From contig JAYTHE010000025.1 of the NCBI GenBank assembly GCA_043732705.1, forward strand, positions 315-64,314: 64,000 nucleotides of DNA, written 5' to 3'. Source of the DNA: Candidatus Omnitrophota bacterium. GTDB lineage: Bacteria > Omnitrophota > Omnitrophia > Omnitrophales > Aquincolibacteriaceae. A model generated the notes under the pieces. It made no database searches. It worked only from the letters and a program-made list of their open reading frames with translations, and was not told where the DNA came from. A program made the position numbers and the translations under genes. This document shows, piece by piece, positions 34,001-61,718 of the stretch. Positions within the stretch are counted from its first letter, which is position 1. Each line of letters begins with the position of its first letter.

Positions 34001-37000
34001 TAACGGTTGTCCTATTTCAACGCCCAGAATAGTTCCCTGGTTCTCAGTCACTGCCGAATAGCGATTAATTCTTTGCTGTGAAATTCCCGCTTCCTGCAAA
34101 ATCCGATTATTGTATTCAAACAAAATTGACGCATCGAGTTGGTAATAAAGATTCGGATCCGCGAGCGGATGCGCGGGATCAAGGACAAGCACATTTATGC
34201 GCCATTCTTTAGGTGCCGCGGGTGCGGGCGCAAAATATAAATCAAGTCCAGGCGCGTCCAGAGGAGCATTCACAATCAACACATCTTCTTCCAAATGATC
34301 CAGCTCAACAATCGTTTTGCGTCCGTTAAAAACAGCTAAAATGGAATTTTCCAACTCAAAAATATTTATTTTTTTGACTTGAGAACGGTGCAATCGACTC
34401 GCATCTTGAGAATCAAGCGTAAGCGAAAGATAACTGCGCAAATTAGGAAAATTCGGCAAAGGCATATTTGTCGCTGTGTCTTTAAGCGGCCACCATTCAA
34501 GCACAACCAACTCCGGGTTATTTTGGGCGAGCACTCCCAGCTCGGCTTTTGGCAGACCAAAGTTCGTCGCATCAAATGAATAAAAGTTTTTGATGTGCGG
34601 CATTAATTGGGTCCATTGTTCCGGTGATAGTTTATTGACAAAATAAAAATGCCAAAGCCCGTCTTTTTGATAAACCGTTTCTTCCTGCGCTTCACGTTTA
34701 AAACCTAATTTGGAAAGCTTGTCTTTAAGCACGGTTTTATCGGCAGGCTCTTGTGTTGCTGGATCGGAAGCGGCGTATTGAACCTGATAATAAACATTAT
34801 CCGGTTTGCCTTCGCCGTTTTGAATCGTGACTTTGTAGCCGTGTTCACTCGGCTCCGTGACGCGAAAATGATAATCAAGTTTGTTGCCCGTAATCGGCTG
34901 ATTTCGCGGCGCAATCAAATGGTCAATATCTGTTAACGAGGGCAGCACTTGTTTTGCAAGACTGCCTGCATGGATTCCAGCGGCAGTCAAATCTAAAACA
35001 ATTTCACCTTGATCGATTTTTAGAAAATGTTTTCCCAAAAGTCCGCGCATCTTTGCGTCATCAGACGTTAGCGCGTCAAATTGCTTAATCGCGTTTTGTA
35101 AGCGCTGTTCAATTCCATGCTTCGCGCCGGGGGGAGCTGGAACAGCCTCATCATCAAAAGGCACTTTCTGATTTTTAAAAATTTTTTCTTGCCCGTCAGC
35201 AAAATAAATCAAATCAAATCCATTACCTGAGGGATCCTCCCCCATAGTGGCATCTTCGCTCAAACGATTATTGCCGATTTGGACAACCAATCCTTTGCGG
35301 CCGTTCAGTACGGCTAAATCTGAAACATTGATTGGCAACGCTTTCTTACCTGGAATAATGAAAATTTTTTCAACCGATGGGGGTAAAGTCAATATGTCCG
35401 GCAGTCCATACTCAATAGCATGCTCATAGACAATCTTGCGAAGGCGCGGCATTTTTTGAAGCGCAACAGCAACTTGTTCTGACTTTACAGCGGTAGCGTC
35501 AAAGTGCGCAAGAGTCAGCATTTCCAAACGCTCAAGCGGCAACGCATTAAATTCTGCTGGTGTCAAATGCCGGGCGCTATAACCACGCAAATTAGGAAAT
35601 AATTTACCGAAATCGGGCCAAAATCCTTCTTTCTCTGGAAAAGGCGGTTCAAGAATAAATAAATCTGGATTTTGATCAGCGAGAAAGCTCCACATCTCAA
35701 CCGGGAAATTATCCGCGTTTTCAAATTCGAGAACCGCGACGCCTCGAACGAGCATAATAAGACTGATCCAATCCACAAATTCAAGACGGCCCGGGTATTC
35801 CACGTTAACCCGGCAATAAATAAAGCCATCTTGATAGTTAATAGAAAAATACTCGCCGCCTTTCAACGCTTTGAGATCCGTGTTTAAACTTGCGGCATGT
35901 TCTCGCACAGCCTCGATTTTCGCGTTGTCCGGCTCATAAACAACATTCGAATAATTAACTTCTTTAGTGCCCAACTCACCTTGACTGTAAACCGTCACAA
36001 GATATCCCTTTTCAGAAACCGCGGCCGGCCGGAAACTATAATTTTTCGGAGATGGAGGATAGGGTGCTTGCGACATTGGATCCGAAGGAGACGGAAACCG
36101 GGCATGGCCAATAAACCGCGGAAGAAGTACATGATCAAATCCGTGAATATTTTTCAAAATTTCATTCACGACATCCATACCATGCTTTTCGTACGACGTT
36201 AAATCCAAAACTACTTCATCGTGATCAATGGAAACAATACTCGGGGCAAATGGATACTTTTGTATTGATTCCAAATGCAATAGCTGGTCGATTACAGCTC
36301 TTTGACGCTGCTTGAGGTCTTCGATTGATTTATTTTCAGAAAAATCTGCAAGGAGTTCGTAAACTTGATTGAATTGATTCGTGGCATAAGTTCTAACTCG
36401 GGCGATGTTTTCAGGCAGAAGCGCATCGGATTCGGTCCAATATTCTACAAAGTCGTCTGTGGGGTACTTTGAAAAATCCGTCCCATCTTTTACGATGATG
36501 ATAGTTTTTAACTTTGCTCCTGCCAGCGCAAATGAATTGACAATATATTGTTTAACAGCCCCGCCCCTTTCGTGAATGAATCTTTGAACCAAAAAAGTTA
36601 AACCTATTTGTGAAAAAGGCTTCGCTTTGATTTTATATTTCGGGGACACGCCTTCCACGACGGCGGCTGCGGCAGCTTCCGGCTTCACTTCTTCATCCAT
36701 TTTTTGATGTTGAATCGCGGCATGCACAGCGGCATAGGCGTAACCGGAAAAAAGCAAAGTTTGAATGTCATCCAGAGTTGCCAGCCATGGGCTTTTTAAA
36801 TTAAATTCGCGCGCAAGATTTCGCGCTGTTTCGTCACGGTCAATCAAGGTTGCGTTTTGGCCCGCCATGCCTAAGGCCGCCATCAATTCCTGCAAAGACA
36901 AAATTCGCGGCGAGATTTGCCCAGAATTCATCAAAACCCGGACGGAATAGCCGCGCTCAAACAGAAAACGGAAAAGGTCTGCCTGCAATGCCGTCAATTT

Positions 37001-40000
37001 GCCGCCACCATAAATCACGAGATCACGCGGCAAACGCTTCAGTACCGCGCCCGAAGTTTGGCGCGCTAAATCCCAATTGCCCGTTTTAAGCAAAATTGAT
37101 AAATCCAGTTTATGTCCGCCTGTTCTTCTTCCCGTGTCCATCAGCCAGTTAAAAAAAGCCCGGAATAAATTCTCAAAAATTTCGGGCTCCTGATCGCGAA
37201 GTTTGGCGAGCTGAGGATCTTCAGGCGGTTTTTCAACCGTCGGCGTAATCGATACTGTTTTAAAATTCACAGCTTCCACCCGGACCAGCGCCTCATCGGG
37301 CGGTTTGATGATTTCGCCGCGCGGCCCATCAACATCCCAGGCATTTTTGCCGCCCCGCGCCTCAGGACTGTAGATGTCACCTTGCGGCTCAAATTTTTCA
37401 CCACTGTTTCTTCCGTCCAGGTTCAACAAGGACATGAAGCGACTCAACGCGTCCATTTCGCGCTGCTTCTTCTCGTTCGGCGGCGGTGACTCCGGCTCGG
37501 GCTCTCCTGCTTTTTCGCGCGCTGCCTTTTCCTCTAAAAACTGCTGATACCGGCGTGCCATCTCTTCTAATTTCTTATATCTTTGCCAGACGCGCTCATA
37601 TTTCTTAAGAGCGTTTTGAAACCTTTTATTTAATTTTTCCAGTTTTTGCTGCTCATCGGGATTTTGAAACTCCTGTCTTAAATTTTGCAGCATAACCAGC
37701 ACCGCGCCCGGAAGCCTGCGCGCGGGATTTTTAATTTGATCTTCAATTTCATCCAAACGTTTAAAAGTCACCATCCCCGGTGTTTTGAGCGCCAAAGCCA
37801 AATGCTTTTCGATCAGCGTCATCGCTTCGTCAAAATCCGCTACTTTTTCATTAAAGTTTTTCTGACGTTTAGCGCGTAAACGTTCCTGCGTTTGACGGTC
37901 GGCCTCTGCTTTCGCCTGTGCGTCCATTTCAGCGCGCATAGCAAGTGCCTGGCTGATATCCGGGACGGCTATCTGAGGTGCATTTTTTTCCTTAGGTATA
38001 TCGCCCTCCTGAACTTCGGGAACAGGATGATTTGTATTTTGAACAATGCTTTCAACCCAATCTACAATTTGAGATTGTAAAAATTGGATTTGGAGTTCGC
38101 TTAAAACCAACTCGCCGCCATTGATATCCGGATCTAATTGGGTAGTTAAGCTTTCCCATACATTCGATTGAGGCATTCCGACATATGAATCACCCTTCAA
38201 ATGTTCAAGCAAAGCAGGAAAAGGATTTTCACCCAGCAGCGAGAAAAAGTCGCCGTCACCATTCTGCGCTCCGGTAAGCCCCATTAAAGCGGCCTGAAAT
38301 TTTTCTAAATCCGCGATCGTAACCTGGCCAAACAAATAGGCCATAAGCGAGTAACGGTAAAGTTTGCGCGGTGTCAGCGTATTATTTGCATTTTCAATCC
38401 ACTCAAAAAGTACTGCGACCGCGTCCTGGTTCAAAGCTCCTTCGGGAGTGCGAATGTTTTGAATCACATGCGCCAATTGAATCGCGGAGTTGGGCGGGCG
38501 GCGCGGTTCCCGGCTAAAAATCCGTCCGGCTAAAAATTCAACCCAGGCCAATTGCACATCATCAAACAAATCCGCGGCAAGTCCTTTATTGGCATCCGAC
38601 GACCAGGAGCGTTCATTGAAAAGAGAATCCATGATTTGCATAAATAATTTTTCGGATTGTTCCCCCTGCACACGGAAATATTCACCGCGCGTAAAAGCAT
38701 GCATACCCAAAGTCATACTGATAAAAAACCAGTCCCTTCCTGTCGCAATATCCGCCGTGCTAATTACAAGCGCATTGTCCTTATGCTCAAAATAAGAATG
38801 TTGATTGGTTCGATTGATTTTGACGTGAATTTTATTAATGACAGGCGGACTTAAGACATCCACGATTTTTTGATAAATCGCGACTTGCTTCACCGAAGCT
38901 GTGTCAGGCTGATTTTCGGTAAGCTGCGACACGGCATAAAGCCGCTCAAAATCAGCGGAATGCTCCGCAAGTTGCCAGCGTTCGTATGTCGGCCCATAAA
39001 CAAAACGCGCGGCATCCGCCCAACCAGCTTGCGGATGCTTGACTAAATATTGAATGGCTCGGGTCAGTTCACGAATGGTAGGAATAAACTCTTCGTTTTG
39101 GACTTGAGCGGTAATCCAAGCCTGAAAATGCGCAATGCTGGCCACTCTAGTATCATCTTCCGCCAGCCCTGCGGTTTGCGCCAATTTTGCGGTGATTAAA
39201 AGCAAACTCGGCTCATCATAAGGCCGCGCCATAAACACCGATGAGCGGCTCATCAAAGGCGATGAGACTTTATTGCGGCCTGAAAAATGCGCGCCATTTA
39301 AAGTTCCGATGAAAAGAAAACCCGGATGCGGCTTTTTCCCGCCGGCCAAAATATCATTCAACTTCCCTTCCAGCACGCCCGATTTCAAAAAATTCATTTC
39401 GCGCAAAGCAATGATGGAACCATCCGCTTTCGCAGTTTGAATCGTCGCTTCAAGTTCATCATCACTCATCGAACCGTTCAAATAATGAATGGCCTGGGAA
39501 GCGCTCGAAACCGGGTTGCGTTTTTGCCATTCCGCTAAAAAGTTTTCGAGTACAAAATCTTTGCCCCAACCCGAAGGACCCAGAACAAGCGATGACACCT
39601 TGCCGGGCTCAACAAATTGGCCCTCCGCGCGCGCTTGACGCAAGCGCATCAAATCCCATAAATACGCAAGATAGGAAAGCGTTTGGCCGGTCAACGCTAC
39701 GTCATTCAAAGTCGCATAGTCTGCAAATTGCGCGCGCGTTGCTTCCAGCCGCTTCGCTTCAAGCGCCTTAAAATCAAGCAGCGGCCTTCCCTGTTCGTCA
39801 TTGCCCATTTTTTTCTGAAATATGAACTGTACCGCGCTTTGTTCGACTTCGCTGAAACGGTCGCGGTAAACAAGCCAGATTTGATAAATCAATTCGCTTT
39901 TTTTGTCCTGGTCCGATGCGCTGAGGCCGAATGCTTTGACGCGATTGCTGGCTTCTTGAATTTCGCGGATCGAAAACTCATATTGCGGGCCGATTAATTT

Positions 40001-43000
40001 CGCGATTTCATGCATATTCATCAAAATCGGAATGATTTCTTCGGCATCCTTCACGCCCGCTAAATATCGCTCGGCCTGCGCTTCATAAAAAGCCCGGTCA
40101 AAGTCATCAAAAACAACCGTGACACCTCTTTCCTGCGCGACGCGCAAGACATTGCGGTCTTCCGTTGTTTCATCATTGCCGGTCATCACAATGGGTTTGT
40201 TTTTGCCGGCATTATCTAATAAAAAATAATGAAAATCAGCCGGAGCGGTATTGGCTTCATCCCAAAGCAAAATACCGCGTAGGCTTTTACGCCAATTGCC
40301 CACAAAGCCGCGCGGGCCGGTACCGGTCAATTCACTTTCTTCGACATTAGAACCCGTTGTAAAAGGCCCGAATCTTTCTTCCGCGGAATAGCCAAGCGCT
40401 TGCGCTAAATCGGGCAACAATTTACTTTTGCCCGTACCGGGCGCGCCCTGCAAAAAAACAATCGGAACCGCCTGCGTAATTTTTTTCACCAGTGCCAGAC
40501 GTTCATCGGCTGTTAAATAATCAAGTTCAAGTTCATCGTCGATGAGAGGAACTGTTAGATTGCCAACACCGGCGTGATTTAAAGTGTCTCTTAAAAAACT
40601 TCGAAAACCCGTGCGGTCATTCTTGTATTTTAAAACCACGGCCTCTTTAATGACGGCAAGCGGCTGCTCGGACAAATCTCCTTTCCAAGACTTTTCGGCG
40701 AGCTCATCCCTTAAGGCCTCGAGCGTGTCCCAGCTCAAAGTATTCACCATTTGCCAATAAAATTTATGCCAATCTTCCGCAGACCGAATGTGACTTAGAA
40801 TTTTGTTCAGCCTTCGCCCGGCAATCGCCGAGTTCATGCTTCCGGACACACCACGTTTGGCTTCCTGCGCGCCCAACATGATTTTGGCCTGAACCTGAAT
40901 GTAATTCGCGATGACCGCGTCGCGGCGATAATGCACGCCCCAAGTATGCTGAAAAGCCTCGAAAGGATTTTGTAACTCTTGCAGCAACGCGAAATAAACC
41001 TTTAGCCGCGCATAACTCCAATCAAATTCGCTCGGAAACAGTTCGTTGGTCAAGCCGCGATTTGACGGCAAAGGCAGATTTTTAAAGAGGTCGCGCAATT
41101 GCTTGAGCTGATTCCATTTTTCATTCAGCTTGCCGCTTGCCGCAAGAGTTGGAAATTCTTTTTTTAACTGCTCGAAATAAAGCGCGTCTTGATCTTCAGA
41201 TTTTGCGATGCGCGTGGAATATTCGTAGCGCGACCGGCCTTCATTTAAACCAGTCGCCGTTAAAATCAACTTCCCTTTGAATTCGGAGAGATTCTTTCGT
41301 TCGCCATTCACAATCAAATAAGGCACGTCGGAGAAAAGCGACTCAAGTTCTTTCATCAAACGCGGACTGCGTTCGACGCCCTCAAGAATAACTGTTTCAC
41401 CCGCCTCAAGCGCGGCCAATACTTTTTGTTTCACGTTGCGAATTTCAAAATATTTGTCATGTACGCTCATGAGCTCGCCCGTATCAATCATCGCGCTCGC
41501 GCTTGATCCTAAGCTCATATGTTGGACCGTTACTTTTTGGGCGGGATTTGCGGCACGGATTCTCTCGGTCAGAAAAGGCAAATCATCAGCCTCGAGCAAA
41601 TGCACACTGCCTGCTTCCATCTCCGGTAAATCCGAAGTTGCCTCTTCCGGTTCCGCAACAGCCGCGGGCTTCATCGCAACGAAATGCGAATAAACGAACG
41701 GCACTTCCACTCCCGCGGCAACTTCCACTTGAACGCCTGGCGTATGCATAATCGCGTTCCAAATACCTTCATCTTCGAGATTTTCCGTGATTCTGATTTT
41801 GACATTCTTTTGCGCCAAAATCCCGGGCAAAGGCCGCAAACGGTTTGTGCGGGCATCAATCTCAACTCGTTGAAAGAGAATATCTTTGGTAACTTGATTG
41901 ATCATCCAAACGTCACCTTCCAACGCATGTCCCAAATGAATGGTTTTCGGCTCGGATAAACGTGAATAATCTTTTTGCTGAAAGACAATTTCAAAATCAG
42001 GCGGCACCTGAATCACTTGGCCGTTCACAATCAAGGTGCGGTAAACCAAAATTTGATCGATAAAATAGCGGAAATCCGGGTCGTTGCGCGGCCCCTGAAT
42101 TACAAGCCGTTTCTTGCCGTTCATCGCTTTCACGAGCGGGCCTTCCTGATACTCCCATTCACCCTGACCATTAATGCCGATATGCTCAACTAAAATATCC
42201 TGAAAATCGGACCTCTTCATAAGATCAATCACCGCGTCATTTGGTCCCAACACGGCATCTTCACGAAGCTGATTGTGGTCCTGCATGAGCCGGTCGAACT
42301 CTGAATGAAAAGCTCCCGTATCAAGTCCGGTGCTTTGATCATCCGTTTGCAGCGCGCGCGAATAAACTGTGATCGAAAAATGGTCCGCTTCTTTCGGATG
42401 AATTCCGACAAAGACCTGCAAACGTGGATCCGCGGGCGTGGCCGAGCTTCCTAAAAACGGTTTAGCATCGAAGAGCGCGTTAAACTGCTCCAAGGCCCGC
42501 GCGTCCGCGCCTTCGGTATCAAAAAATAAAATTCCGCCCCCCCTCACTACGCGTTCAATGAGCCCCATTTGTGGGACACGCGTTCCGTCCGGCTGAACCG
42601 TAGCCAAATATTGAACCTCAATCCGGTGACGGTCATCACGGAGACGGACACGCAGATATGGGACATCGCGGTTTTCTTTTGACGACCGCTGCTTGGCGAG
42701 GTTATGCAATTCAAAATCCAGCGCGTCCATCGCTTCGGTTTTGTCAATGACGCGCGGCTCGCCTTCAATATCCCGCATTTCGGAACGCACGGTTTCGACA
42801 TCTACAGAAAGCGATGAATCTTTTTTTGTATAATTCCAAACAATATGACCGCCGCCCTTTGTAATTGAGGCTACAATTGATGAGGTGTAATCACTGTCGA
42901 ATTGCCCACGTAGTTCATGAGTGGACACTTTTATGAATCGTGAAATCATTGCAAAGGCAACTACGGCTGACAACATACTGAAAACGCCGGCCGGGAGAAT

Positions 43001-44695
43001 ATATTCCGCTTCATTCAAAGTGAAAGCGATACTCATGCCCTGCTCAGGAGATTCTGCTTTGATTGGCTTGACAATAATTTGAGTGATGGGAAGCTGAGGA
43101 TTTTTCTTTAGAAGTGCCCTTACTTTATCACCAACGGTTTCAATATCCGTCATAGCTAGCCGCATTTCGGAGCGATTAAAAACCATAGGGGTCAGTCCCA
43201 CTGCGGAGGACAGACCCCCGTCGCGCATTTTGGAGCGCCGCGTTTCGCCGCGCAAGGCCGGCAAAACTTGGGTTAAGAAATCACGAACTTCGTTGCGTGG
43301 AAAATCAAAGATGGGCTCGGGACGCGAACCACTATGCGCAAAACCCAGTGGTTCACCAGGCAGGCGACGCGCGGTCATCAGCGTTTCATAAATTTTTTGA
43401 TGTTTAGGGGAAACATTTTTAATCGAAGGCGTTACGACTGAATAGCTATATCCAAGCCGGCGCAGTAATTCACAAATTCGTTTACGGTGAAAGCCGCCAT
43501 AAACCAATACTTGCGGCGCGGAAGACGGGTTAGATTCTAAGATCCGAGCAAGCTTGGCATCGCGTTTTTCGGCGGTGAGATAAAACTCCATGGCTGGGTC
43601 GATCAGCTTTTCCCAAGCCGCGAGATACACAACCGGCTTTTTTAAAACTGAAGCCGCATCCGCGGCCGCGCGTTGTGAAAAACCGGAAAGAGCAATGCTT
43701 GCCGGTTGAGCCGCAGGCTCAGAGGCAAAAACATAACGGCTCACCCATTCAAACTCTTCGGGCGCAGCTTTGAGCGCGGCGACTTTTTTAATCGATTGCA
43801 ATAATTGGTAATTCGTAAAAATGCGGCGGTCGGTTTCCGAAGCCAGCTGCCGTGCTACAAAGTCACGCTCGCTACTTTTAATTTCCGCAAATAAAACCGC
43901 GGGTTGAATGTTACGTTTTACGTTTGATTGCGGCGACTCAAGCAGGCTTAATAAAGCTGCGAATTGCGGATAGGATTCGAAAGGATTTTTACCCGGAAAT
44001 GCGGCACGCATTTTTTTCGCGAGCCGCAAACAATACTGATCAAACGAAAGTTGTCCATCCTGTGCGCGCTGCCATTCCTTCAGCCACTCGCTCACAGCGC
44101 GCGGATAATTTATATTCATGATCTTTTGATATTCCGCGTCAATTTGCCGCAGCTCATCCTGAATGACCGGTTCTATTTTTTTGCTTTCGCCGTAACGGCG
44201 GATATTTTCATGATGTAATTTAAAATTATCCGCGCCGATTAAATCAAAGGCTTGAGGATTCAATACATGCAAAAATTCGGCGCCGCCCAACCGCAAATGA
44301 TCCATGAGGTAAAATGCGGCTTTCTTTTTCAACTGTTTATCTCTGATGAAGCCAAAGTAATCTTCGGTCGGAACTTGTCCTTCATAACCTTCTTCATAAA
44401 CAGTTTTTACGCCGGACTTGCGAATGAGCTGCGAAATAATTCTAGCGGTATTGAGCTGTGCTTCAAGTGAATCATGCGCGTCTTGAATAAAAATAATCTT
44501 TTTCGCCGCATCCGCTGATTGATACGTCTCTTCCACTCGTCCCCATGGGGCTAAATTAGGCAGTATTGAACCGGAATACAGTCTTGAAGATTGTGAGGGG
44601 AAAGAAGTTGTTGGACAGACCATAAGAAAGACAAGGCCGAGAGCAACCCCTCTTCTTGTAAGCAGACTCCATGACTGATTTTTGTAGGTAAACAT
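22028..44695 (-). CDS. Giant 7,555-aa secreted or membrane-anchored multidomain protein: signal peptide, TraB/TIKI-like domain, multi-AAA_5 (dynein/midasin-like) ATPase core, coiled coil, and a long array of repeated modules.
   Basis: A single uninterrupted 22,668-nt ORF with an ATG at 44693-44695. N-terminus MFTYKNQSWSLLTRRGVALGLVFLMVCPTTSF. Internal motifs are listed in the sub-features below. Confidence 0.8.
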   Translation of the reverse strand: MFTYKNQSWSLLTRRGVALGLVFLMVCPTTSFPSQSSRLYSGSILPNLAPWGRVEETYQSADAAKKIIFIQDAHDSLEAQLNTARIISQLIRKSGVKTVYEEGYEGQVPTEDYFGFIRDKQLKKKAAFYLMDHLRLGGAEFLHVLNPQAFDLIGADNFKLHHENIRRYGESKKIEPVIQDELRQIDAEYQKIMNINYPRAVSEWLKEWQRAQDGQLSFDQYCLRLAKKMRAAFPGKNPFESYPQFAALLSLLESPQSNVKRNIQPAVLFAEIKSSERDFVARQLASETDRRIFTNYQLLQSIKKVAALKAAPEEFEWVSRYVFASEPAAQPASIALSGFSQRAAADAASVLKKPVVYLAAWEKLIDPAMEFYLTAEKRDAKLARILESNPSSAPQVLVYGGFHRKRICELLRRLGYSYSVVTPSIKNVSPKHQKIYETLMTARRLPGEPLGFAHSGSRPEPIFDFPRNEVRDFLTQVLPALRGETRRSKMRDGGLSSAVGLTPMVFNRSEMRLAMTDIETVGDKVRALLKKNPQLPITQIIVKPIKAESPEQGMSIAFTLNEAEYILPAGVFSMLSAVVAFAMISRFIKVSTHELRGQFDSDYTSSIVASITKGGGHIVWNYTKKDSSLSVDVETVRSEMRDIEGEPRVIDKTEAMDALDFELHNLAKQRSSKENRDVPYLRVRLRDDRHRIEVQYLATVQPDGTRVPQMGLIERVVRGGGILFFDTEGADARALEQFNALFDAKPFLGSSATPADPRLQVFVGIHPKEADHFSITVYSRALQTDDQSTGLDTGAFHSEFDRLMQDHNQLREDAVLGPNDAVIDLMKRSDFQDILVEHIGINGQGEWEYQEGPLVKAMNGKKRLVIQGPRNDPDFRYFIDQILVYRTLIVNGQVIQVPPDFEIVFQQKDYSRLSEPKTIHLGHALEGDVWMINQVTKDILFQRVEIDARTNRLRPLPGILAQKNVKIRITENLEDEGIWNAIMHTPGVQVEVAAGVEVPFVYSHFVAMKPAAVAEPEEATSDLPEMEAGSVHLLEADDLPFLTERIRAANPAQKVTVQHMSLGSSASAMIDTGELMSVHDKYFEIRNVKQKVLAALEAGETVILEGVERSPRLMKELESLFSDVPYLIVNGERKNLSEFKGKLILTATGLNEGRSRYEYSTRIAKSEDQDALYFEQLKKEFPTLAASGKLNEKWNQLKQLRDLFKNLPLPSNRGLTNELFPSEFDWSYARLKVYFALLQELQNPFEAFQHTWGVHYRRDAVIANYIQVQAKIMLGAQEAKRGVSGSMNSAIAGRRLNKILSHIRSAEDWHKFYWQMVNTLSWDTLEALRDELAEKSWKGDLSEQPLAVIKEAVVLKYKNDRTGFRSFLRDTLNHAGVGNLTVPLIDDELELDYLTADERLALVKKITQAVPIVFLQGAPGTGKSKLLPDLAQALGYSAEERFGPFTTGSNVEESELTGTGPRGFVGNWRKSLRGILLWDEANTAPADFHYFLLDNAGKNKPIVMTGNDETTEDRNVLRVAQERGVTVVFDDFDRAFYEAQAERYLAGVKDAEEIIPILMNMHEIAKLIGPQYEFSIREIQEASNRVKAFGLSASDQDKKSELIYQIWLVYRDRFSEVEQSAVQFIFQKKMGNDEQGRPLLDFKALEAKRLEATRAQFADYATLNDVALTGQTLSYLAYLWDLMRLRQARAEGQFVEPGKVSSLVLGPSGWGKDFVLENFLAEWQKRNPVSSASQAIHYLNGSMSDDELEATIQTAKADGSIIALREMNFLKSGVLEGKLNDILAGGKKPHPGFLFIGTLNGAHFSGRNKVSSPLMSRSSVFMARPYDEPSLLLITAKLAQTAGLAEDDTRVASIAHFQAWITAQVQNEEFIPTIRELTRAIQYLVKHPQAGWADAARFVYGPTYERWQLAEHSADFERLYAVSQLTENQPDTASVKQVAIYQKIVDVLSPPVINKIHVKINRTNQHSYFEHKDNALVISTADIATGRDWFFISMTLGMHAFTRGEYFRVQGEQSEKLFMQIMDSLFNERSWSSDANKGLAADLFDDVQLAWVEFLAGRIFSREPRRPPNSAIQLAHVIQNIRTPEGALNQDAVAVLFEWIENANNTLTPRKLYRYSLMAYLFGQVTIADLEKFQAALMGLTGAQNGDGDFFSLLGENPFPALLEHLKGDSYVGMPQSNVWESLTTQLDPDINGGELVLSELQIQFLQSQIVDWVESIVQNTNHPVPEVQEGDIPKEKNAPQIAVPDISQALAMRAEMDAQAKAEADRQTQERLRAKRQKNFNEKVADFDEAMTLIEKHLALALKTPGMVTFKRLDEIEDQIKNPARRLPGAVLVMLQNLRQEFQNPDEQQKLEKLNKRFQNALKKYERVWQRYKKLEEMARRYQQFLEEKAAREKAGEPEPESPPPNEKKQREMDALSRFMSLLNLDGRNSGEKFEPQGDIYSPEARGGKNAWDVDGPRGEIIKPPDEALVRVEAVNFKTVSITPTVEKPPEDPQLAKLRDQEPEIFENLFRAFFNWLMDTGRRTGGHKLDLSILLKTGNWDLARQTSGAVLKRLPRDLVIYGGGKLTALQADLFRFLFERGYSVRVLMNSGQISPRILSLQELMAALGMAGQNATLIDRDETARNLAREFNLKSPWLATLDDIQTLLFSGYAYAAVHAAIQHQKMDEEVKPEAAAAAVVEGVSPKYKIKAKPFSQIGLTFLVQRFIHERGGAVKQYIVNSFALAGAKLKTIIIVKDGTDFSKYPTDDFVEYWTESDALLPENIARVRTYATNQFNQVYELLADFSENKSIEDLKQRQRAVIDQLLHLESIQKYPFAPSIVSIDHDEVVLDLTSYEKHGMDVVNEILKNIHGFDHVLLPRFIGHARFPSPSDPMSQAPYPPSPKNYSFRPAAVSEKGYLVTVYSQGELGTKEVNYSNVVYEPDNAKIEAVREHAASLNTDLKALKGGEYFSINYQDGFIYCRVNVEYPGRLEFVDWISLIMLVRGVAVLEFENADNFPVEMWSFLADQNPDLFILEPPFPEKEGFWPDFGKLFPNLRGYSARHLTPAEFNALPLERLEMLTLAHFDATAVKSEQVAVALQKMPRLRKIVYEHAIEYGLPDILTLPPSVEKIFIIPGKKALPINVSDLAVLNGRKGLVVQIGNNRLSEDATMGEDPSGNGFDLIYFADGQEKIFKNQKVPFDDEAVPAPPGAKHGIEQRLQNAIKQFDALTSDDAKMRGLLGKHFLKIDQGEIVLDLTAAGIHAGSLAKQVLPSLTDIDHLIAPRNQPITGNKLDYHFRVTEPSEHGYKVTIQNGEGKPDNVYYQVQYAASDPATQEPADKTVLKDKLSKLGFKREAQEETVYQKDGLWHFYFVNKLSPEQWTQLMPHIKNFYSFDATNFGLPKAELGVLAQNNPELVVLEWWPLKDTATNMPLPNFPNLRSYLSLTLDSQDASRLHRSQVKKINIFELENSILAVFNGRKTIVELDHLEEDVLIVNAPLDAPGLDLYFAPAPAAPKEWRINVLVLDPAHPLADPNLYYQLDASILFEYNNRILQEAGISQQRINRYSAVTENQGTILGVEIGQPLSAEETAALMLLRGVSSFEAHGQSLPPADVMAQFHRNNPHVNRSSSPAADASPKTSQAADNSPQARLETISRNLRKLMADGVLPWTEEFIPFGVKLKDGDRVTVSLSNMTLKNPQHWIQIVRAVEGADEIYAAAGDITNEAVSELPAGVKVLILNHTRQFTDWQIIRRFHQLEELHIAFVDAGGPASMQARAELESVRDDEQGFKIDFDGSLLMRKYRIKAAAPSTVNEPAQARLEKVQRALQSLMDAGVLPWKKTDLKDSVFLKDGRVNVSLFMGSPENQQEWIQIAQATAGADEISVSRTNITNEAVNALPTELKVLSIENAPNFTDWQSIQRFRKLEKLFIRFPPDGKGAESQAQALAVFQTVTDGGFGFEIFNNGNQWPEKHRVKETAAAPKAQLPLDPQKPLADPNDYYGLDIIKLWRYNQKILAANGIPEAKINTKLSDDGHLFLHISSGLTKLDRNVLPQLRGIGEVYINSPEVSDYDLDQLTKNNPQIRQFDYAADLSPTTHVDGWQWLENLTNVVHLSLPPLANVGVEVLKFISSRKLESLSLFEVQEKCKPYLLRTVANEPGAFHFVHFMSNRAGEFTGQENEGFAVLAHLQAKPAPKETQPHVSQVLDPEAAYDLSFADRLAYNKTVIDRLNALATTSGASLSESFEGKLVLSVYGNPTLAQIELLASFRGIESIHMDAKDMQGIESLVTNNPRLYHLVFHLHESDSANLTRPWLASLKHLERLNILGMSKGRALFNLGANLKYLSQLPKLRTVELPGNKKDYPALKSAPAGADNVVEVSFGVGDETMSVVLSDTASPPASPEPSQAPDPEAAYEMSSQELLAWNNGVRNKILELNGTGNSAEVPEFFSSSPRTILLRGSWSAEQAALLKDFRGIMSVHIELNKTNALAEFAKNNPRIIVVDCLLSVIGFGQDLGLFNHFKNLRDLTIRSNQPDADNFADYLPSLADLPLKQLVLPGLFKDYERDLQPSNDDDAIKITFSVGHREGKFKIIAKKTQSEPSQAPDPEAAYTMDKTALMEWNHDVRDKILALNGKRKSDFTRVKVDLVGGKVYLEVEGVLSLGQVALLAEFRGVHAVNVRSDVAGFDEFAVNNPRIAIILHDVSKAVPGSKNLFWFDKLRHVEEIGLEKKSRSLSLDAGSIKAFASMGLKKLTVPLTQSECLPYLQRSDAVDAVLITFSDGKTEKYKIHSLEDARLEEDRRLTERELKELNGRAFFADNRKIMFDPATVTVNFVGFKIRHPEDWIFVLRALPAARRFAFDSSSEAFDYFEPANEGEPGAVLVVEFSQGDPFLKWMKLKPAIAPQEAKLEAPQPGSPAAIQKIVKEFLAMNIFYGDIHVSGIFARASVSFQDAEIRDPSRWRWALEQLAGARQFIFTDTQLEKMGEVEPLFFENADVADPGSIHIAMVHGKGVNSKTSPLGWKKFKPATPKPSNQFTAPDPVKAYQMSAAEITAYNAAIIHQLNVISERDRQVFVTSGNNLSIILHESAKAISDGQLELLKQLRGLELLSIKNTSAHALPHETMTQVARNNPRIESFMYVAPKTATNFKDFEIIQTLSWVRELRNVTDFGLIQYGAILEDVFDWIKDMPLEKFHSNLEPQNDTVAQYIEPAGDGEGFEYISDTIRGRYKLKSAASKQPAKQNGKPVLDTAKPLADPNAYYEYSTVERSDYNANILTGNNQGGHLLISYGGDGIIMLTVGRDATPSEIKKMMPLFRGIDGVLFESPQDSESLAVFAKNNPGMRILEYVPRPVNVRSWPEMPWLAEWKELQTVMFGQDVPLGNLRFIQSPRLTGLSLFEMPTVAELGPYAEKSEQGHPGAFELEYRNEGGFRGSYSGGHFVLKHLSPQSPTPAAKPPIDSVTKPEDFYAYSQQELYQYNMHVMSSSMASEMSLIFTNDHGPGAKGLKLFITSIGPREKAALPFLRGISTIFADDSLKKGSEGERFLLANNPRVKKVMRTDDEESAKEEKQPSPPTAQLDPEQAYKMDTGELEAYNQRIINQMKLEPSGGSPTFIMSQYIVPAPLGGGAGGKHVDRAGFALAISQALSDEQLQLLMQLRGIGQIIFLSQSITPRDMQTFVQNNPQLANITYAVNQAFPAHEWSWLANLKYTESLKIQGVSNNNYFPPVAINYLAAFIQNPLRSLSLPGEERDYLGHIKPYKEGAGEEKFIRINFTQGSTGSKLFTFGGNAQKPPLKDNLAGAQAPHLPAAVSWLDGKPIEEVYQLTPAKRLERNLQIIAKIKSEIAAGRMKNILPAFVSAPDFMPKNLFDANEEDGWLRINLGADGVTDWSFIRYFEGCDIAEVYEKTVIAEDVALLTLRNPGLENISISHSPQVTSNLSLALGGFSHLKELFGPRQEIKEQLERADKTDTAQVFRVRFDGADSDVLMKLKSRPDLQVYLELDAEAEAAHRIPATPQKEDVNQALARIKREIDSYKGSGDYISGDITAEKLPEGEIRVSFRKVKSKENIELSRFGSPHVTHWSFENSQMGAGHILETIPHSEKIIDLNLQGLGFSNTDDMTFLLARFKNLKSLNLSGIQLAFGFDLTKVPDALAQLPHLRMLFIDHGLLDDSMIQRHFVERAEGAAQQPNDLTVFLEDKKSELVGVRYWIRKTEGASSESAAAPQMDARARAAAYNERLKLLNTEGVETGQSFFMSRDDKVFLQVGSGVTRVASYDFLNKFEDVEGIFIDRASGLDEVQKILQVKSDFTAIEIQEEEQYDSIPDAKKKLVWVIDHLKQLNSVYFHKDVGGDGDLSEIIPHFNASRITTLELYEWRDAYSRAFLEKIAYSRWPLEHLIISGTMKVESQFINMFSGQLRTLSMTAHTELLKPIGTNLVQVESLTVSAHNLGIFMEKNMLNATATPKLRELVIAEEVDIDLVIADEIDIDLAVKVIERLPDLDALQFAKTIHDRFDQNAITAKFGEINNAWNAAVIKGNLYEITVNVKAMREAAPSELPKPAPTSASTSDSTSALSAEDRAAVYNAQLKTIKTKSPDSSADHFIFWAHDGRVFLKAQQALYVHSQRYNLDFLKEFPKIDGIVFDDNLDFSAGTLILGLRQDFDAIYLEDSDFTGRAYESDTIGRDYLITVLEKLSQTKALYFGGADYSPAFVQIVLNAIKGRPIQTLSLSSSFLNAAAGDTVVDNTEKFFESITPSLKKLELSFVSSNANARGLLRTLNAYFGGIQELTVQTRPDDLEGFRFNIKSVPNAEKITLVDIHLDSLADIESLGLHKLRQLKELTIDNRIGIERIDDINDYLPGLKKIAFKVNDISDAQQLKQSLLSHGRQFKILIDLVANAFGLHEVTIVFSETKPASPPSVASSASVSEKSAKEIAAEYNEKLAKMQLSGVALFKAEDGKVFLTIWQMYLASKFLPDLKRQFPMVEGLVLEDHFDYSAQENPKAVSFLLDAIKNSQLRAIKLDMTETTQKTIDKIKKIIDVMPNLDSLYFGEQSYDAKFLRGVFDAVRGRKIHSLGFDKTNLGGNFTDVVEKLIQNLRFPIKRLIIRTTEKTNVFGRMWIHEFANTLTELVIDKPSSSRVLRNPVDLPLLEKLDVDQGSAQFILPQLGKSGRELQSLALRIDNWADLDHAFLAEFEPHMAQVRNFELEFDYVARSDSSDFSAIQKLINGAQNMERFVIREGSRWDEIPFDLSAARNLKEMIINRQVETANILTILEQAPQLEKIVFQSSEISDTSMFAVWVSQKGGRINNGPGLEKTITFPSQESNKLIMVSRNHPVTVEALPPKEEIFDFETVDFVLGMVPPERREAVMAQVKEMFRLRGMAGAFEVFSKRYKNHQEKSGIARSELRDTSAPLTSEDHAAMILSLFKQTQISDSALLILDDETLGAMTEAQFNEYVALLGLNSKINLRVNRTKILSAQAQKRFDLLKRQFTDENRVDFFSGLRGNYKRVIFFGQHDRIAGYSEFLNKLPGNKKIIRAAYSTKNAGLPTLALLVPEDKIKSREEFFGEKEFRVMAEFAQQLMAELVIAFSA
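25321..25390 (-). repeat. In-frame 30-nt tandem DNA repeat (about 2.5 copies) within the giant ORF.
   Basis: cggcaatgacaaggtcaatatcgacttcct repeats, encoding ELVIAEEVDIDLVIADEIDIDLAV. Confidence 0.8.
32800..33840 (-). repeat. Two tandem LRR-like protein repeats of about 165 aa in the giant ORF (about 495-nt units).
   Basis: PQARLETISRNLRKLMADGVLPWTEEF...ITNEAVSELPAGVKVLILNHTRQFTDWQIIRRFHQLEELHI versus AQARLEKVQRALQSLMDAGVLPWKKTD...ITNEAVNALPTELKVLSIENAPNFTDWQSIQRFRKLEKLFI. Confidence 0.75.
37400..37950 (-). other. Charged K/E/R-rich predicted coiled-coil linker in the giant protein.
   Basis: AKAEADRQTQERLRAKRQKNF...KLEKLNKRFQNALKKYERVWQRYKKLEEMARRYQQFLEEKAAREKAGEPEPESPPPNEKKQREM. Confidence 0.55.
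38995..43195 (-). other. AAA+ ATPase region of the giant protein with several AAA_5 (MoxR/dynein/midasin-type) modules. Approximate limits.
   Basis: Walker A VFLQGAPGTGKSKLL (DNA 40424-40447). Walker B GILLWDEANTA. Second Walker A LVLGPSGWGKDFV (DNA 39559-39585). AAA_5 sensor-like GFLFIGTLNGAHFSGRNKVSSPLMSRSSVF. Two degenerate modules (GGGILFFDTEGADARALEQFNALFD; GETVILEGVERSPRLMKELESLF). Confidence 0.6.
43375..44518 (-). other. N-terminal domain of the giant protein with tentative TraB/GumN/TIKI-like features. Approximate limits.
   Basis: IIFIQDAHDSLEAQLN...VKTVYEEG and later VLVYGGFHRKRICELLRRLGY resemble the two conserved His-containing boxes of the TraB/TIKI fold. Weak call. Confidence 0.3.
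44597..44695 (-). other. Signal peptide or N-terminal TM anchor of the giant protein.
   Basis: Positively charged n-region (TRRG) followed by a hydrophobic core VALGLVFLMVC. Confidence 0.6.
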
Positions 44696-52911: not shown

Positions 52912-54150
52912 CTATTCAAGCAGGGAGTAGAAATTGGAGACAGCGGGATCGGCAAAGATCGAGGAAGGCGTCCAACCGGACAAAGTCAGCCCCTGCTTGG
53001 TACGGACGCGGCTCAATGCTACATAAGCCTGTCCGGGCTCCCAAAGCGACCTTAAATCCACATGCGCACGGTCCAGGGTCGCCCCCTGAATTTTATGAAT
53101 CGTGGAGGCATAAGCGAGGTTCACGGGAAAATTCATGGCATGCGCGACTTCATCGCCTTCCGCATTATGAATCGAAAAACCAAAGGTCGTGACTTCGATT
53201 TGTTCGCCGTCGACTTCAACCGCCAAACTCTCTTCCGAAAAATCAACGACTTTGCCGACCGTACCGTTTACAAACCGCTGTTTGGGGTCATTAATGCGAA
53301 ACATTACAAGCGCGCCTTTTTTTAATTCGAGAACTTCTGGAATGGGCGCGTCTTTTTTAATTTGAGTGAGATACGGCTCTGCACCCAAATATTCTGTAGG
53401 AAAGGATTGCGAATCACTCGTGAGGCGTTTGAGGCAAATTAGATTATATTTTTCGGTTTGCTCACGGCGCGGAAAAAGGCGCGGCACACCGTCTTCCACC
53501 TCTTCATCAGAAATAACGAGCGAATCCAGAAAATCTTTGACCTCAAGATCCAATTTTCCAATGCGAATCTTATTCAGCACTTCCAAAAACGAGCTGTCTT
53601 TCGTACGGACTTGATCCTTCAAAACACAAATTTGAAAATCCGAACGCTGCCAGGCGGGAGAATCAAAGCACCAGCGTTTTTCCTGTCCGCGCGAAATCGG
53701 CGGCAGCTGCGCAAAATCCCCTACGGCCACGACACGAATACCGCCCCAGGGCGCGTTATTTTTTCTTACAATGCGCGCGACTTGCTCGGCACAATCAAGC
53801 GCATCGGCGGGAATCATGGAAACTTCGTCGATGACGATACAATCGCACTTTTTGATGCGTTTTTTAACGCGCGCGTTGGACGCGGCTTTTTCTAAAATCG
53901 CGGCCACGGGGCCTTGCATAATTCCGAGGCCAAAAAAACTGTGGAAGGTTCGTCCGCCAATCACAATCGCCGCGGCACCCGTCGAAGCAAGAATATCAAT
54001 CGCTACGGGAGATTCATTGAAAAAACGCCGGATAAGAAAACTTTTTCCCGTACCGGGGCCGCCGGTGAGAAAAACATTGCGTGCGGAATTGAGCAATGAC
54101 TCCCATGCAATTGTTTGCGAGCCAGTTAGCTCAATTTTTTTAGAAGTCAT
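52912..54150 (-). CDS. Pif1/RecD-like SF1 DNA helicase.
   Basis: Walker A FLTGGPGTGKSF. Walker B IVIDEVSMI. VAVGDFAQLPP. C-terminal YASTIHKIQGATLD and ALSRVRT. Confidence 0.8.
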   Translation of the reverse strand: MTSKKIELTGSQTIAWESLLNSARNVFLTGGPGTGKSFLIRRFFNESPVAIDILASTGAAAIVIGGRTFHSFFGLGIMQGPVAAILEKAASNARVKKRIKKCDCIVIDEVSMIPADALDCAEQVARIVRKNNAPWGGIRVVAVGDFAQLPPISRGQEKRWCFDSPAWQRSDFQICVLKDQVRTKDSSFLEVLNKIRIGKLDLEVKDFLDSLVISDEEVEDGVPRLFPRREQTEKYNLICLKRLTSDSQSFPTEYLGAEPYLTQIKKDAPIPEVLELKKGALVMFRINDPKQRFVNGTVGKVVDFSEESLAVEVDGEQIEVTTFGFSIHNAEGDEVAHAMNFPVNLAYASTIHKIQGATLDRAHVDLRSLWEPGQAYVALSRVRTKQGLTLSGWTPSSIFADPAVSNFYSLLE

Positions 54151-55724: not shown

Positions 55725-55829
55725 GCTGCTCCTGAAAAAAATGATGAAATACGACTATATAATTACGAACTATTTTATAAATTCTTAACGAAAGATAAGG
55801 ATAGAGTGTACAAACTTCAACCATGCCCG

Positions 55830-56357: not shown

Positions 56358-56367
56358 CTTATGTCCG

Positions 56368-57734: not shown

Positions 57735-57735
57735 G

Positions 57736-59510: not shown

Positions 59511-59514
59511 AGGA

Positions 59515-60834: not shown

Positions 60835-60838
60835 AAAT

Positions 60839-61594: not shown

Positions 61595-61718
61595 AATTTC
61601 CTTTAGGCCAAATCTGAAAGCTTAAAGCTCAAAACCATAACTTAAAACCCTCTAACTGTTCGGACACTTTCAGTTTTGATCTGTAACTTTGAGCTTTTAG
61701 ATTTAACCCTTAACCTTT

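What the first reader, a model, noticed from the sequence alone, without database searches (positions are those of the whole stretch)
38995..43195. Dynein/midasin-like arrangement of consecutive AAA_5 modules inside the giant protein
Walker A GAPGTGKS (40424-40447) with Walker B LLWDEANTA. A second Walker A GPSGWGKD (39559-39585) is followed by an AAA_5-type sensor/Arg region RNKVSSPLMSRSSVF. At least two upstream modules have lost Walker A but keep the ILxxDExxRAxPxVLxxLxxLF-like segment. A mix of active and degenerate AAA modules in one chain is the hallmark of dynein/midasin/Rea1 rings. In bacteria these normally occur as small MoxR proteins, not inside 7.5 k-aa secreted proteins.
Basis: partly seen in the sequence, partly recalled or inferred. 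Interest (0 to 1): 0.7.

Follow-up and report, generated by a model that had tools for sequence, protein, structure and literature searches.

The report
Bacterial single-chain midasin/dynein-like AAA ring
Inside a 7,555-residue bacterial protein lies a conserved ~1,270-residue cassette of five or six consecutive AAA+ ATPase modules, only the last two still able to bind ATP, whose closest relatives by sequence (midasin) and predicted fold (dynein motor) are ring motors so far described only from eukaryotes.

Summary
The giant ORF (22028-44695, minus strand) has exactly two Walker A motifs, at aa 1417 and 1706. They sit in the last two modules (M5, M6) of a conserved cassette spanning aa 640-1905. 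Upstream are three P-loop-less modules (M1, M2, M4) and a small α/β domain (M3).

- **Sequence:** profiles of M1, M2, M4, M5 and M6 each have eukaryotic midasin as top PDB hit (E 7e-21, 3.5e-6, 2e-9, 3e-20, 2e-30). The M1 profile aligns to all six midasin AAA modules.
- **Family:** 566 relatives, mostly 2,000-7,700-aa proteins from Omnitrophota, Elusimicrobiota, Planctomycetia-labelled and gammaproteobacterial MAGs plus a Legionella genome. Module order is fixed.

"Secreted" is not supported; the cassette follows a transmembrane helix and is probably cytoplasmic.

Most likely function: a membrane-anchored single-chain AAA+ pseudo-hexamer acting as an ATP-driven switch or remodeller. Ring closure and the status of M3 rest on models whose coordinates I could not inspect.

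The parts
22028..44695 (-). Giant ORF, 7555 aa, monocistronic. Neighbours are divergent or convergent housekeeping genes.
   Evidence: The identical protein is also found on an independent Logan assembly contig and on an NCBI contig of 65,180 bp.
44600..44650 (-). N-terminal hydrophobic segment (aa 16-32), preceded by K/RR. Signal anchor or signal peptide.
   Evidence: sequence and hydropathy; the role is inferred.
42932..43000 (-). Strongest predicted transmembrane segment (aa 566-588), between the N-terminal 'IQDAH...GGFH' domain and the AAA cassette.
   Evidence: Kyte-Doolittle mean 2.2 over 19 residues; the topology is inferred.
38981..42778 (-). Conserved AAA cassette, aa 640-1905 (M1-M6 with linker and lids).
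   Evidence: family alignment; colinear matches in relatives; AF2 model with pLDDT 80 and pTM 0.79.
42326..42778 (-). M1 (aa 640-790): AAA_5-type module without a P-loop. It keeps a β-hairpin in helix 2, a Walker-B-like strand GGILFFD and the arginine motif VYSRA. R780 lies at window 42356-42358.
   Evidence: M1 profile vs PDB: midasin E 6.9e-21, aligned to all six midasin AAA modules. R780 is Arg in 85/85 aligned relatives. DSSP.
41921..42262 (-). M2 (aa 812-925): truncated degenerate AAA module with no β1/α1. It keeps the hairpin, the β3 strand RLVIQG, α3 and a pre-sensor-1-like hairpin IVNGQVIQV.
   Evidence: hhalign M2~M4 95%, M1~M2 84%; profile vs PDB: midasin AAA1 E 3.5e-6; DSSP.
41660..41920 (-). 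M3 (aa 926-1012): small, conserved α/β domain ('WVIN...PGLL...LRLRIT..LPDWVWHRIMH'). Possible sixth, strongly reduced module; not assigned.
   Evidence: conserved in the family. Only weak hhalign similarity to M2 (40%). Not recognised by the M1+M2+M4 signature HMM or by the PDB profile search.
41201..41623 (-). M4 (aa 1025-1165): complete but P-loop-less AAA module, with helix-2 and pre-sensor-1 hairpins and the Walker-B-like strand TVILEG.
   Evidence: hhalign M1~M4 96%, E 3.5e-9; profile vs PDB: midasin E 1.8e-9, dynein E 0.02; DSSP.
40511..41200 (-). All-helical linker (aa 1166-1395) between M4 and M5.
   Evidence: DSSP of the model, positions 530-735; conserved in the family.
40016..40510 (-). 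M5 (aa 1396-1560): complete AAA_5 ATPase module.
- Walker A GAPGTGKS: 40424-40447
- Walker B LLWDEAN: 40250-40270
- Sensor-1 N1507: within 40172-40189
- R1514: 40154-40156
   Evidence: Pfam AAA_5; profile vs PDB: midasin 2.6e-20, next McrB 4e-7. K1423, D1479, E1480, N1507 and R1514 are essentially invariant in about 144 relatives.
39629..40015 (-). M5 helical lid (contains the invariant R1577 in FSIRE), followed by two long helices leading into M6.
   Evidence: DSSP H912-991 and H1003-1051; invariant columns.
39191..39628 (-). M6 (aa 1690-1835): AAA_5 module with a non-canonical site.
- Walker A GPSGWGKD: 39557-39580
- Walker B IIALREMN: 39392-39415
- Sensor-1 N1800
- Arg motif RNKVSSPLMSRSSVF: 39233-39277
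   Evidence: Pfam AAA_5 C-terminal half; profile vs PDB: midasin 2e-30. K1712, E1766, N1800 and R1817 are invariant. GK[D]/[non-D]E versus GK[ST]/[D]E covariation.
38981..39190 (-). M6 helical lid (aa 1836-1905), with the conserved 'H.WI....PT.RE' and 'VYGP.Y' motifs.
   Evidence: family alignment. This part was not included in the structure model.

Best explanation
The region encodes a single-chain AAA+ pseudo-hexamer of the midasin/dynein/RNF213 kind. Six consecutive α/β modules sit in one polypeptide. Four are degenerate: M1, M2, M4, and a reduced M3 of uncertain status. They are followed by a helical linker and two nucleotide-binding modules, M5 and M6.

**Shown:** module homology, midasin as nearest sequence relative, a dynein-like predicted fold, and invariant catalytic residues.

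**Inferred mechanism:**
- The protein is anchored in the inner membrane. Its N-terminal domain lies outside, and the cassette and the roughly 5,600-residue tail lie in the cytoplasm.
- M5 (canonical Walker A/B, sensor 1, arginines) hydrolyses ATP.
- M6 binds nucleotide and possibly hydrolyses it, using a carboxylate relocated from Walker B to Walker A.
- M6's site would be completed across the ring closure by the invariant arginine R780 of P-loop-less M1.
- Nucleotide-driven opening and closing of the ring moves the helical linker and the downstream tail. In relatives that tail carries a peptidase-like domain and LRR arrays.
- The machine therefore acts as a regulated mechanochemical switch or remodeller of bound proteins, as proposed for midasin and RNF213, and not as a processive unfoldase.
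For: **Sequence**
- AAA_5 hits in the giant protein and its relatives.
- Midasin is the top PDB hit for the M1, M2, M4, M5 and M6 profiles. The M1 profile aligns once to each of midasin's six modules.
- M1~M4~M2 and M5~M6 by hhalign. A signature HMM built from M1+M2+M4 finds M5 in 85% of relatives at a median of 20 bits, against a shuffled maximum of 2.1.

**Structure**
- AF2 model with pLDDT 80 and pTM 0.79.
- The Foldseek top 50 are all dynein motors, E down to 1.8e-16.
- M1-M4 modelled alone (pTM 0.78) hits CbbQ and NorQ, and aligns to dynein over 397-405 residues.

**Conservation**
- The order M1→M6 is fixed and there are exactly two Walker A motifs in all 150 relatives examined.
- Catalytic residues and M1 R780 are essentially invariant.
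- Reciprocal Walker A/B Asp swap in M6: 111 vs 27 sequences, with 2 exceptions.

**Analogy:** RNF213 has six AAA units with two adjacent competent ones, and is proposed to act as a switch.
Against: - Ring closure, and the placement of M1 R780 next to the M6 site, could not be measured, because the tools return no coordinates or PAE.
- The alignment behind the models has only 21 sequences. AlphaFold2 was trained on dynein structures.
- M3 has no sequence support as an AAA module.
- Modules M1-M4 lack obvious helical lid domains.
- In this particular protein M5 has lost the pre-sensor-1 hairpin segment present in relatives, M6 has Arg at the Walker B Asp position, and the downstream HExxH motif of the family is lost. 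This copy may therefore be functionally reduced.
- No vWA/MIDAS partner, microtubule-binding stalk or E3 module is present.
- There is no experimental or expression evidence. The membrane topology is inferred from hydropathy alone.
Confidence: 0.65

Rival explanations
1. Only M5 and M6 are functional AAA modules. They form a conventional ring between chains, for example a trimer of M5-M6 pairs giving a hexamer, as in type II AAA or MoxR oligomers. M1-M4 would be accessory relic domains lying outside any ring.
For: Only two P-loops exist. M1/M2/M4 show no direct hhalign similarity to M5/M6 (≤4.5%). M1-M4 lack lid domains (DSSP). A gammaproteobacterial MAG locus and several truncated database proteins match only M5-M6.
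Against: M1, M2 and M4 profiles hit midasin AAA modules specifically. The whole-cassette model superposes on dynein and midasin rings over 650-860 residues, far more than two modules. M1-M4 alone aligns to dynein over about 400 residues. The M1→M6 order is strictly conserved, and M1 keeps an invariant Arg. Most of the 'M5-M6 only' entries sit at protein N-termini of fragments.
Confidence: 0.15
2. In this particular giant protein the cassette is a catalytically dead structural scaffold, a decaying copy of the family's motor.
For: The giant protein has lost the family's HExxH motif (TLGMH). Its M5 lacks the pre-sensor-1 hairpin segment. M6 has Arg instead of Ser/Asp before the Walker B Glu. It is only 25-31% identical to mainstream members.
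Against: All invariant catalytic residues are retained: K1423, S1424, D1479, E1480, N1507, R1514, R1577, K1712, E1766, N1800, R1817 and R780. The closest relative, P0003 (45% identity), shares the same variant features, which implies a maintained subfamily and not decay. The 22.7-kb ORF is intact in two independent assemblies.
Confidence: 0.1
3. The cassette is a fragment of eukaryotic midasin acquired by horizontal transfer, not a bacterial lineage of its own.
For: Midasin is the best PDB sequence hit for every module, ahead of the bacterial CbbQ, NorQ, McrB and RavA. One carrier is Legionella, a genus known (from general knowledge) for eukaryote-like genes.
Against: Identity to midasin is low, and there is no module-by-module correspondence: M1→AAA3/5, M2→AAA1, M4→AAA1, M5→AAA5, M6→AAA3. 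Four modules lack P-loops, unlike midasin. No MIDAS/vWA domain is present. The family is broad and deep across several bacterial phyla, with 25-45% internal identity.
Confidence: 0.05

Closest known systems
Midasin / Rea1 / Mdn1 (eukaryotic ribosome-assembly AAA+ protein)
   Same: Several AAA_5-type modules sit in one chain. Midasin is the nearest solved relative by sequence for M1, M2, M4, M5 and M6 (E 7e-21 to 2e-30). The signature 'hairpin-G.L..A...G-hhhhD/E...vLe.LN.L' segment is shared, and β-hairpin inserts in helix 2 are present as in all midasin modules. The model superposes on the midasin ring over 650-700 residues. Both have a very long tail after the ring.
   Different: Only two modules keep P-loops, and they are the last two. 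The cassette is much smaller (about 1,270 aa, against about 2,000 for the midasin ring), and M1-M4 have no clear lids. There is no D/E-rich region and no C-terminal MIDAS/vWA domain. The helical linker sits between modules 4 and 5. The protein is bacterial, membrane-anchored and monocistronic. There is no positional orthology of modules.
Dynein heavy-chain motor domain
   Different: Sequence similarity is marginal (E 4e-4 to 0.02). There is no coiled-coil stalk/microtubule-binding domain or buttress, and no N-terminal linker or tail. In dynein the degenerate modules are the last two (AAA5-6); here they are the first four.
RNF213 / mysterin (dynein-like AAA core plus E3 module)
   Same: Six AAA units in one polypeptide with only two adjacent units catalytically competent. 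It is a giant multidomain protein, and the ring is proposed to act as a regulated switch and not as a processive motor.
   Different: RNF213 is eukaryotic, its active units are AAA3-4, and it carries an E3 ligase module. No sequence or fold comparison with RNF213 appeared among the top hits here.
MoxR-class single-module AAA+ ATPases (CbbQ, NorQ, RavA; Pfam AAA_5/AAA_3)
   Different: MoxR proteins are about 270-500-aa single modules that form homohexamers and usually pair with a vWA protein. Here the modules are concatenated and mostly degenerate, and no vWA gene or domain lies nearby.

Membership tests
AAA+ ATPase, Pfam AAA_5 (PF07728, 'dynein-related subfamily') | Significant match to the AAA_5 profile. 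| tested here: met
   Giant protein: 33.9 bits against a cutoff of 22. Relatives' M5: 57-70 bits over the full profile. PF07728 is precomputed for 19 relatives.
AAA+ ATPase, Pfam AAA_5 (PF07728, 'dynein-related subfamily') | Walker A, Walker B, sensor-1 Asn and arginine residues in at least one module. | tested here: met
   M5 is fully canonical and invariant. M6 has K, E, N and R invariant, with a relocated Asp.
Single-chain hexameric AAA+ ring (dynein/midasin/RNF213 architecture) | Six AAA modules concatenated in one polypeptide. | tested here: inconclusive
   Five modules are recognisable by sequence (M1, M2, M4, M5, M6). The sixth position (M3) is a conserved small α/β domain with the same β-α-hairpin-β-α-β pattern in DSSP, but it has no significant sequence link.
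Single-chain hexameric AAA+ ring (dynein/midasin/RNF213 architecture) | The modules pack into a closed or near-closed ring. | tested here: inconclusive
Midasin (Rea1/Mdn1) | C-terminal MIDAS (vWA) domain and D/E-rich region after a long linker. | tested here: not met
   No vWA or MIDAS Pfam hit anywhere in the 7555 aa at E ≤ 1. Composition is uniform, with no D/E-rich block.
Midasin (Rea1/Mdn1) | P-loops present in the six AAA modules. | tested here: not met
   There are only two Walker A motifs, both in this protein and in all 150 relatives.
Dynein heavy chain | Coiled-coil stalk with a microtubule-binding domain emerging from AAA4, a buttress from AAA5, and an N-terminal linker. | tested here: not met
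   DSSP shows no long antiparallel coiled coil inside the cassette, only a pair of roughly 21-residue helices between the M5 lid and M6. Dynein Pfam families are absent, apart from one sub-threshold D6 hit in P0004 (16.9 bits against a cutoff of 30.5).
MoxR system | Single-module homohexameric ATPase encoded next to, or fused with, a vWA protein. | tested here: not met
   The architecture is multi-module. The neighbours are GT87, sugar epimerases, SdhAB, UbiD, MsrA and a PIF1-like helicase, with no vWA gene.

The most novel reading that the evidence does not exclude
The concatenated six-module AAA_5 ring is not a eukaryotic invention. This bacterial family (Omnitrophota, Elusimicrobiota, Planctomycetia-labelled MAGs, Legionella) would represent either the prokaryotic stock from which the midasin/dynein ancestor was acquired, or an independent second origin of a single-chain AAA+ ring. 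It also shows a previously undescribed active-site solution: the Mg-ligand carboxylate moved from Walker B to Walker A, and an arginine finger donated by a P-loop-less module.
Probability: 0.2. Interest if true: 0.9.

Novelty: new variant of a known kind. Interest (0 to 1): 0.72.

Why it matters
Single-polypeptide AAA+ rings (dynein, midasin, RNF213) are treated in the literature I could read as arising early in eukaryotic evolution from single-module MoxR ancestors (PMC3495828).

A widespread bacterial family with the same concatenated architecture, and with midasin as its nearest sequence relative, would make the origin of these motors directly testable by per-module phylogeny.

It would also offer a much smaller ring (about 140 kDa) for mechanistic and structural work. 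And it gives a first functional handle on one class of the largely unannotated giant proteins of Omnitrophota and related uncultured bacteria.

Tried and rejected
- **Self-BLAST.** BLASTP of aa 501-2000 against itself found no internal repeats. The repeats only appear at profile level.
- **Single-sequence searches.** The cassette against PDB sequences gave nothing. The word-indexed homolog search gave a single Legionella hit. The exhaustive HMMER search was needed to find the family.
- **Pfam on aa 1-1400.** No family at E ≤ 10 apart from noise. No AAA_lid family was found.
- **M3 as an AAA module.** The M1+M2+M4 signature HMM scores M3 no better than shuffled sequence, and the PDB profile match of M2+M3 covers only M2. 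I therefore do not count M3 as a proven module.
- **'Extra P-loop module' in distant relatives.** This was rejected. The double M5 hits are one module split in two, and each protein has exactly two Walker A motifs.
- **Module-by-module orthology with midasin.** Not found; the best-matching midasin modules are out of order.
- **AFDB fold search.** It could not be run because the library was unavailable.
- **Source organism.** It could not be named directly. The nearest named SdhA homolog, at 89% identity, is from a Candidatus Omnitrophota MAG.
- **Genome-contig scan.** It missed the source genome because its Walker B (LLWDEANT) falls outside the scan pattern.
- **Literature.** Searches for bacterial midasin-like or dynein-like rings found nothing in the held library. 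The Omnitrophota giant-gene papers mention neither dynein nor midasin. That library is incomplete, so prior description elsewhere cannot be excluded.
Full report
**Observation**

The window carries one very long minus-strand ORF, 22028-44695, of 7555 aa. The finding's coordinates correspond to aa 501-1901. All four cited motifs are present in frame:

| Motif | aa | Window |
|---|---|---|
| GAPGTGKS | 1417 | 40424-40447 |
| LLWDEANTA | 1476 | 40244-40270 |
| RNKVSSPLMSRSSVF | 1807 | 39233-39277 |

These are the only two Walker A matches in the protein. Chance alone would give 0.4-0.7 in a protein of this size and composition, so the motifs needed support from context. Pfam gives AAA_5 at 33.9 bits (cutoff 22). 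The score comes from the first P-loop (aa 1413-1440) and the C-terminal half of the profile at aa 1754-1817. Nothing matched upstream of aa 1400.

**Gene and context**

- The gene stands alone. Its neighbours are divergent or convergent housekeeping genes: a GT87 glycosyltransferase, sugar epimerases and dehydrogenases, SdhA/B, UbiD, MsrA and a PIF1-like helicase. There is no vWA gene.
- The identical protein occurs on an NCBI contig of 65,180 bp and on an independent Logan assembly, so the ORF is not an assembly accident.
- The nearest named relative of the window's SdhA (89% identity) is from a Candidatus Omnitrophota MAG.
- Hydropathy shows an N-terminal hydrophobic segment (aa 16-32) preceded by K/RR, and one strong transmembrane segment at aa 566-588. 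The remaining ~7,000 residues have ordinary soluble composition.
- I infer an N-in, two-pass topology, with the aa 33-565 domain outside and the ATPase cassette and tail in the cytoplasm. "Secreted" is therefore not supported.

**Family**

- A word-indexed search with the cassette found a single weak relative, a 1,999-aa Legionella protein with LRRs and a transglutaminase-like domain.
- The exhaustive HMMER search found 566 cluster representatives at E ≤ 1e-3, of which 51 were at E ≤ 1e-30. Nearly all are 2,000-7,700-aa proteins matching the cassette colinearly. The closest, P0003, is 45% identical.
- Named or labelled carriers are Omnitrophota, Elusimicrobiota, Planctomycetia-labelled and gammaproteobacterial MAGs. 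Nineteen relatives carry a precomputed PF07728 hit, and one is named "AAA family ATPase".
- A family alignment defines a conserved unit from aa 640 to about 1905.

**Module anatomy from sequence**

I divided the unit as follows:

| Part | aa |
|---|---|
| M1 | 640-790 |
| M2 | 812-925 |
| M3 | 926-1012 |
| M4 | 1025-1165 |
| Helical linker | 1166-1395 |
| M5 | 1396-1560 |
| M5 lid and two long helices | 1561-1689 |
| M6 | 1690-1835 |
| M6 lid | 1836-1905 |

- Profile-profile comparison shows M1~M4 (96%, E 3.5e-9), M2~M4 (95%), M1~M2 (84%) and M5~M6 (88%). There is no direct link between the two groups.
- A signature HMM trained only on M1+M2+M4 recognises M5 in 85% of relatives (median 20.3 bits, against a shuffled maximum of 2.1). 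It does not recognise M3.

Profiles searched against all PDB sequences put midasin first every time:

| Profile | Midasin (Mdn1 / Rea1) | Next best |
|---|---|---|
| M1 | 6.9e-21 / 2.8e-13 | nothing significant |
| M4 | 1.8e-9 | dynein 0.02 |
| M2(+M3) | 3.5e-6, M2 half only | nothing significant |
| M5 | 2.6e-20 | McrB 4e-7 |
| M6 | 2e-30 / 1e-23 | dynein 4e-4 |

- For M6, no MoxR, CbbQ, NorQ or McrB chain appeared at E ≤ 0.01.
- The M1 profile aligns to six places in midasin, one per AAA module. The alignment runs through the β2/helix-2-hairpin/Walker-B/α3 segment and, in some modules, on to the "sF.sRF" arginine motif.
- The best-matching midasin module is out of order: M1→AAA3/5, M2→AAA1, M4→AAA1, M5→AAA5, M6→AAA3. 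There is no positional orthology.
- Across the 150 best relatives the order M1→M6 is never permuted, and each protein has exactly two Walker A motifs.

**Structure**

- An AlphaFold2 model of aa 640-1839, built on 21 aligned sequences without templates, has mean pLDDT 80.0 and pTM 0.79.
- Every module is an alternating β/α unit. M1, M2 and M4 show a β-hairpin inside helix 2, and M2 and M4 show a hairpin before the sensor-1 strand. These are the inserts typical of the MoxR/midasin clade.
- Foldseek against the PDB returns dynein motor domains as all 50 top hits (E 1.8e-16 to 3e-12, 950-1,600 alignment columns, query TM-score 0.34-0.42).
- The degenerate half is therefore made of AAA+ domains arranged like consecutive ring members.
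- I could not obtain coordinates. Ring closure is inferred from these superpositions and the high pTM; it was not measured.

**Active sites**

- In about 144 relatives, M5's K1423, D1479, E1480, N1507 and R1514 are essentially invariant, as are M6's K1712, E1766, N1800 and R1817. The lid arginine R1577 is invariant in the 21-sequence alignment.
- M6 shows a reciprocal pattern. Walker A GK[S/T] goes with Walker B [D]E in 27 sequences. GK[D] goes with a non-Asp residue (mostly Ser; Arg in this protein) before the Glu in 111 sequences. There are two exceptions.
- That may be a single historical event, so the Fisher p of 1e-26 overstates independence. It does suggest the Mg-ligand carboxylate was relocated and not lost.
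- P-loop-less M1 keeps an arginine (R780, "YSRA/FYSRF") in 85 of 85 aligned relatives. In AAA+ rings the arginine finger of a site comes from the neighbouring module (established knowledge; restated). An invariant Arg in M1 is what one would expect if M1 completes the M6 site across the ring closure. This is inference.

**Mechanism (inferred)**

- The protein is a membrane-anchored, single-chain AAA+ pseudo-hexamer. M5 hydrolyses ATP and M6 binds nucleotide and perhaps hydrolyses it.
- Ring opening and closing is transmitted through the helical linker to the long tail.
- Mainstream relatives carry an HExxH-like domain about 100 residues after M6, then coiled coil and many LRR units. Distant relatives carry transglutaminase-like or EDR1/CTR1/ARMC3 peptidase-like domains.
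- An AAA ring joined to a peptidase-like domain and a protein-binding LRR array suggests an ATP-driven protein remodelling or processing machine.
- The distribution of two adjacent competent sites and four dead ones parallels RNF213, which is thought to act as a regulated switch.
- The window's protein has lost the HExxH motif (TLGMH) and the pre-sensor-1 segment of M5, so it may be a remodeller without peptidase activity.

**Comparison and membership**

- It works like, and is built like, the dynein/midasin/RNF213 class, and its modules belong to Pfam AAA_5.
- It is not a midasin: there is no MIDAS/vWA domain and no D/E-rich region, and only two P-loops.
- It is not a dynein: there is no stalk/microtubule-binding domain, buttress or N-terminal linker.
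- It is not a MoxR system: it is not a single-module homohexamer, and there is no vWA partner.

**Novelty**

- The literature available to me states that the six-tandem-AAA protein arose early in eukaryotic evolution from MoxR (PMC3495828).
- Papers on Omnitrophota giant genes mention neither dynein nor midasin.
- Searches for bacterial midasin-like or dynein-like rings found nothing.
- The held library is incomplete and the proteins are in public databases with generic labels. I therefore rate this a new variant of a known kind, not categorically new.

**Limits**

- The alignment behind the models is shallow (21 sequences).
- I had no access to coordinates or PAE.
- M3 remains unassigned.
- Topology rests on hydropathy alone.
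- There are no expression or biochemical data.
- The covariation statistic is not corrected for phylogeny.

Noticed in passing
window 43001-44599 (-), aa 33-565 of the giant protein: The N-terminal domain has conserved 'IIFIQDAH...EAQ' and 'VYGGFH' motifs. It is shared with P0003, P0005, P0008, P0011 and other relatives, is flanked by hydrophobic segments and has no Pfam match at E ≤ 10. It is probably the extracytoplasmic part of the protein. The two His-containing motifs recall, from memory only, TraB/Tiki-type metal sites.
   Followed up: partly
window 38690-38728 (-), aa ~1990-2002: Relatives have a conserved HExxH-like motif ('HE.sHG...TR', then 'QDLED.R..AF') about 100 residues after the M6 lid. 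The window's protein has TLGMHA at that position, so the putative metallopeptidase site is lost here.
   Followed up: partly
window 39392-39415 and 39557-39580 (-); relatives P0003-P0151: M6 nucleotide site: Walker A GK[D] pairs with a non-Asp residue before the Walker B Glu in 111 sequences. Canonical GK[S/T] pairs with [D]E in 27. There are only 2 exceptions. This looks like a relocation of the Mg-ligand carboxylate.
   Followed up: yes
P0004 aa 1-~330 (not in the window): P0004's N-terminal ~330-aa domain ('LWVNLSP.E..RI.P...T.MG..LLAQDY.LKQ') is about 50-64% identical in more than 1,400 other large (1,800-5,000 aa) proteins. Those that carry a name are almost all from Candidatus Omnitrophota. 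The domain is fused to very different enzyme domains, including UbiB, PGK, PGI, HEAT repeats and response regulators. It may be a phylum-wide N-terminal targeting or anchoring module.
   Followed up: no
P0001 (Legionella sp.), P0075, P0087, P0092 (not in the window): The same AAA cassette occurs with transglutaminase-like or EDR1/CTR1/ARMC3 peptidase-like domains. In a Legionella protein it occurs with LRRs. This echoes the MoxR-transglutaminase peptidase linkage proposed by Zhang & Aravind 2012.
   Followed up: partly
window 22031-28495 (-), aa ~6070-6800 of the giant protein: Sub-threshold LRR matches (LRR_LRWD1, NXF1 LRR, LRR_EndoS; E 0.02-0.2) suggest degenerate counterparts of the C-terminal LRR arrays seen in relatives. 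About 5,600 residues after the cassette remain unannotated.
   Followed up: no
window 52912-54150 (-): A 412-aa PIF1-like helicase (PF05970, E 2e-31). Its 90%-identity cluster has 11 members from several assemblies.
   Followed up: no
window 54339-63682 (-): A run of ten same-strand, closely spaced or overlapping ORFs (168-479 aa) that looks like one long operon.
   Followed up: no
window 25980-26513 (+): A 177-aa ORF antisense to the giant gene. It is most likely a chance ORF inside a long coding region.
   Followed up: no
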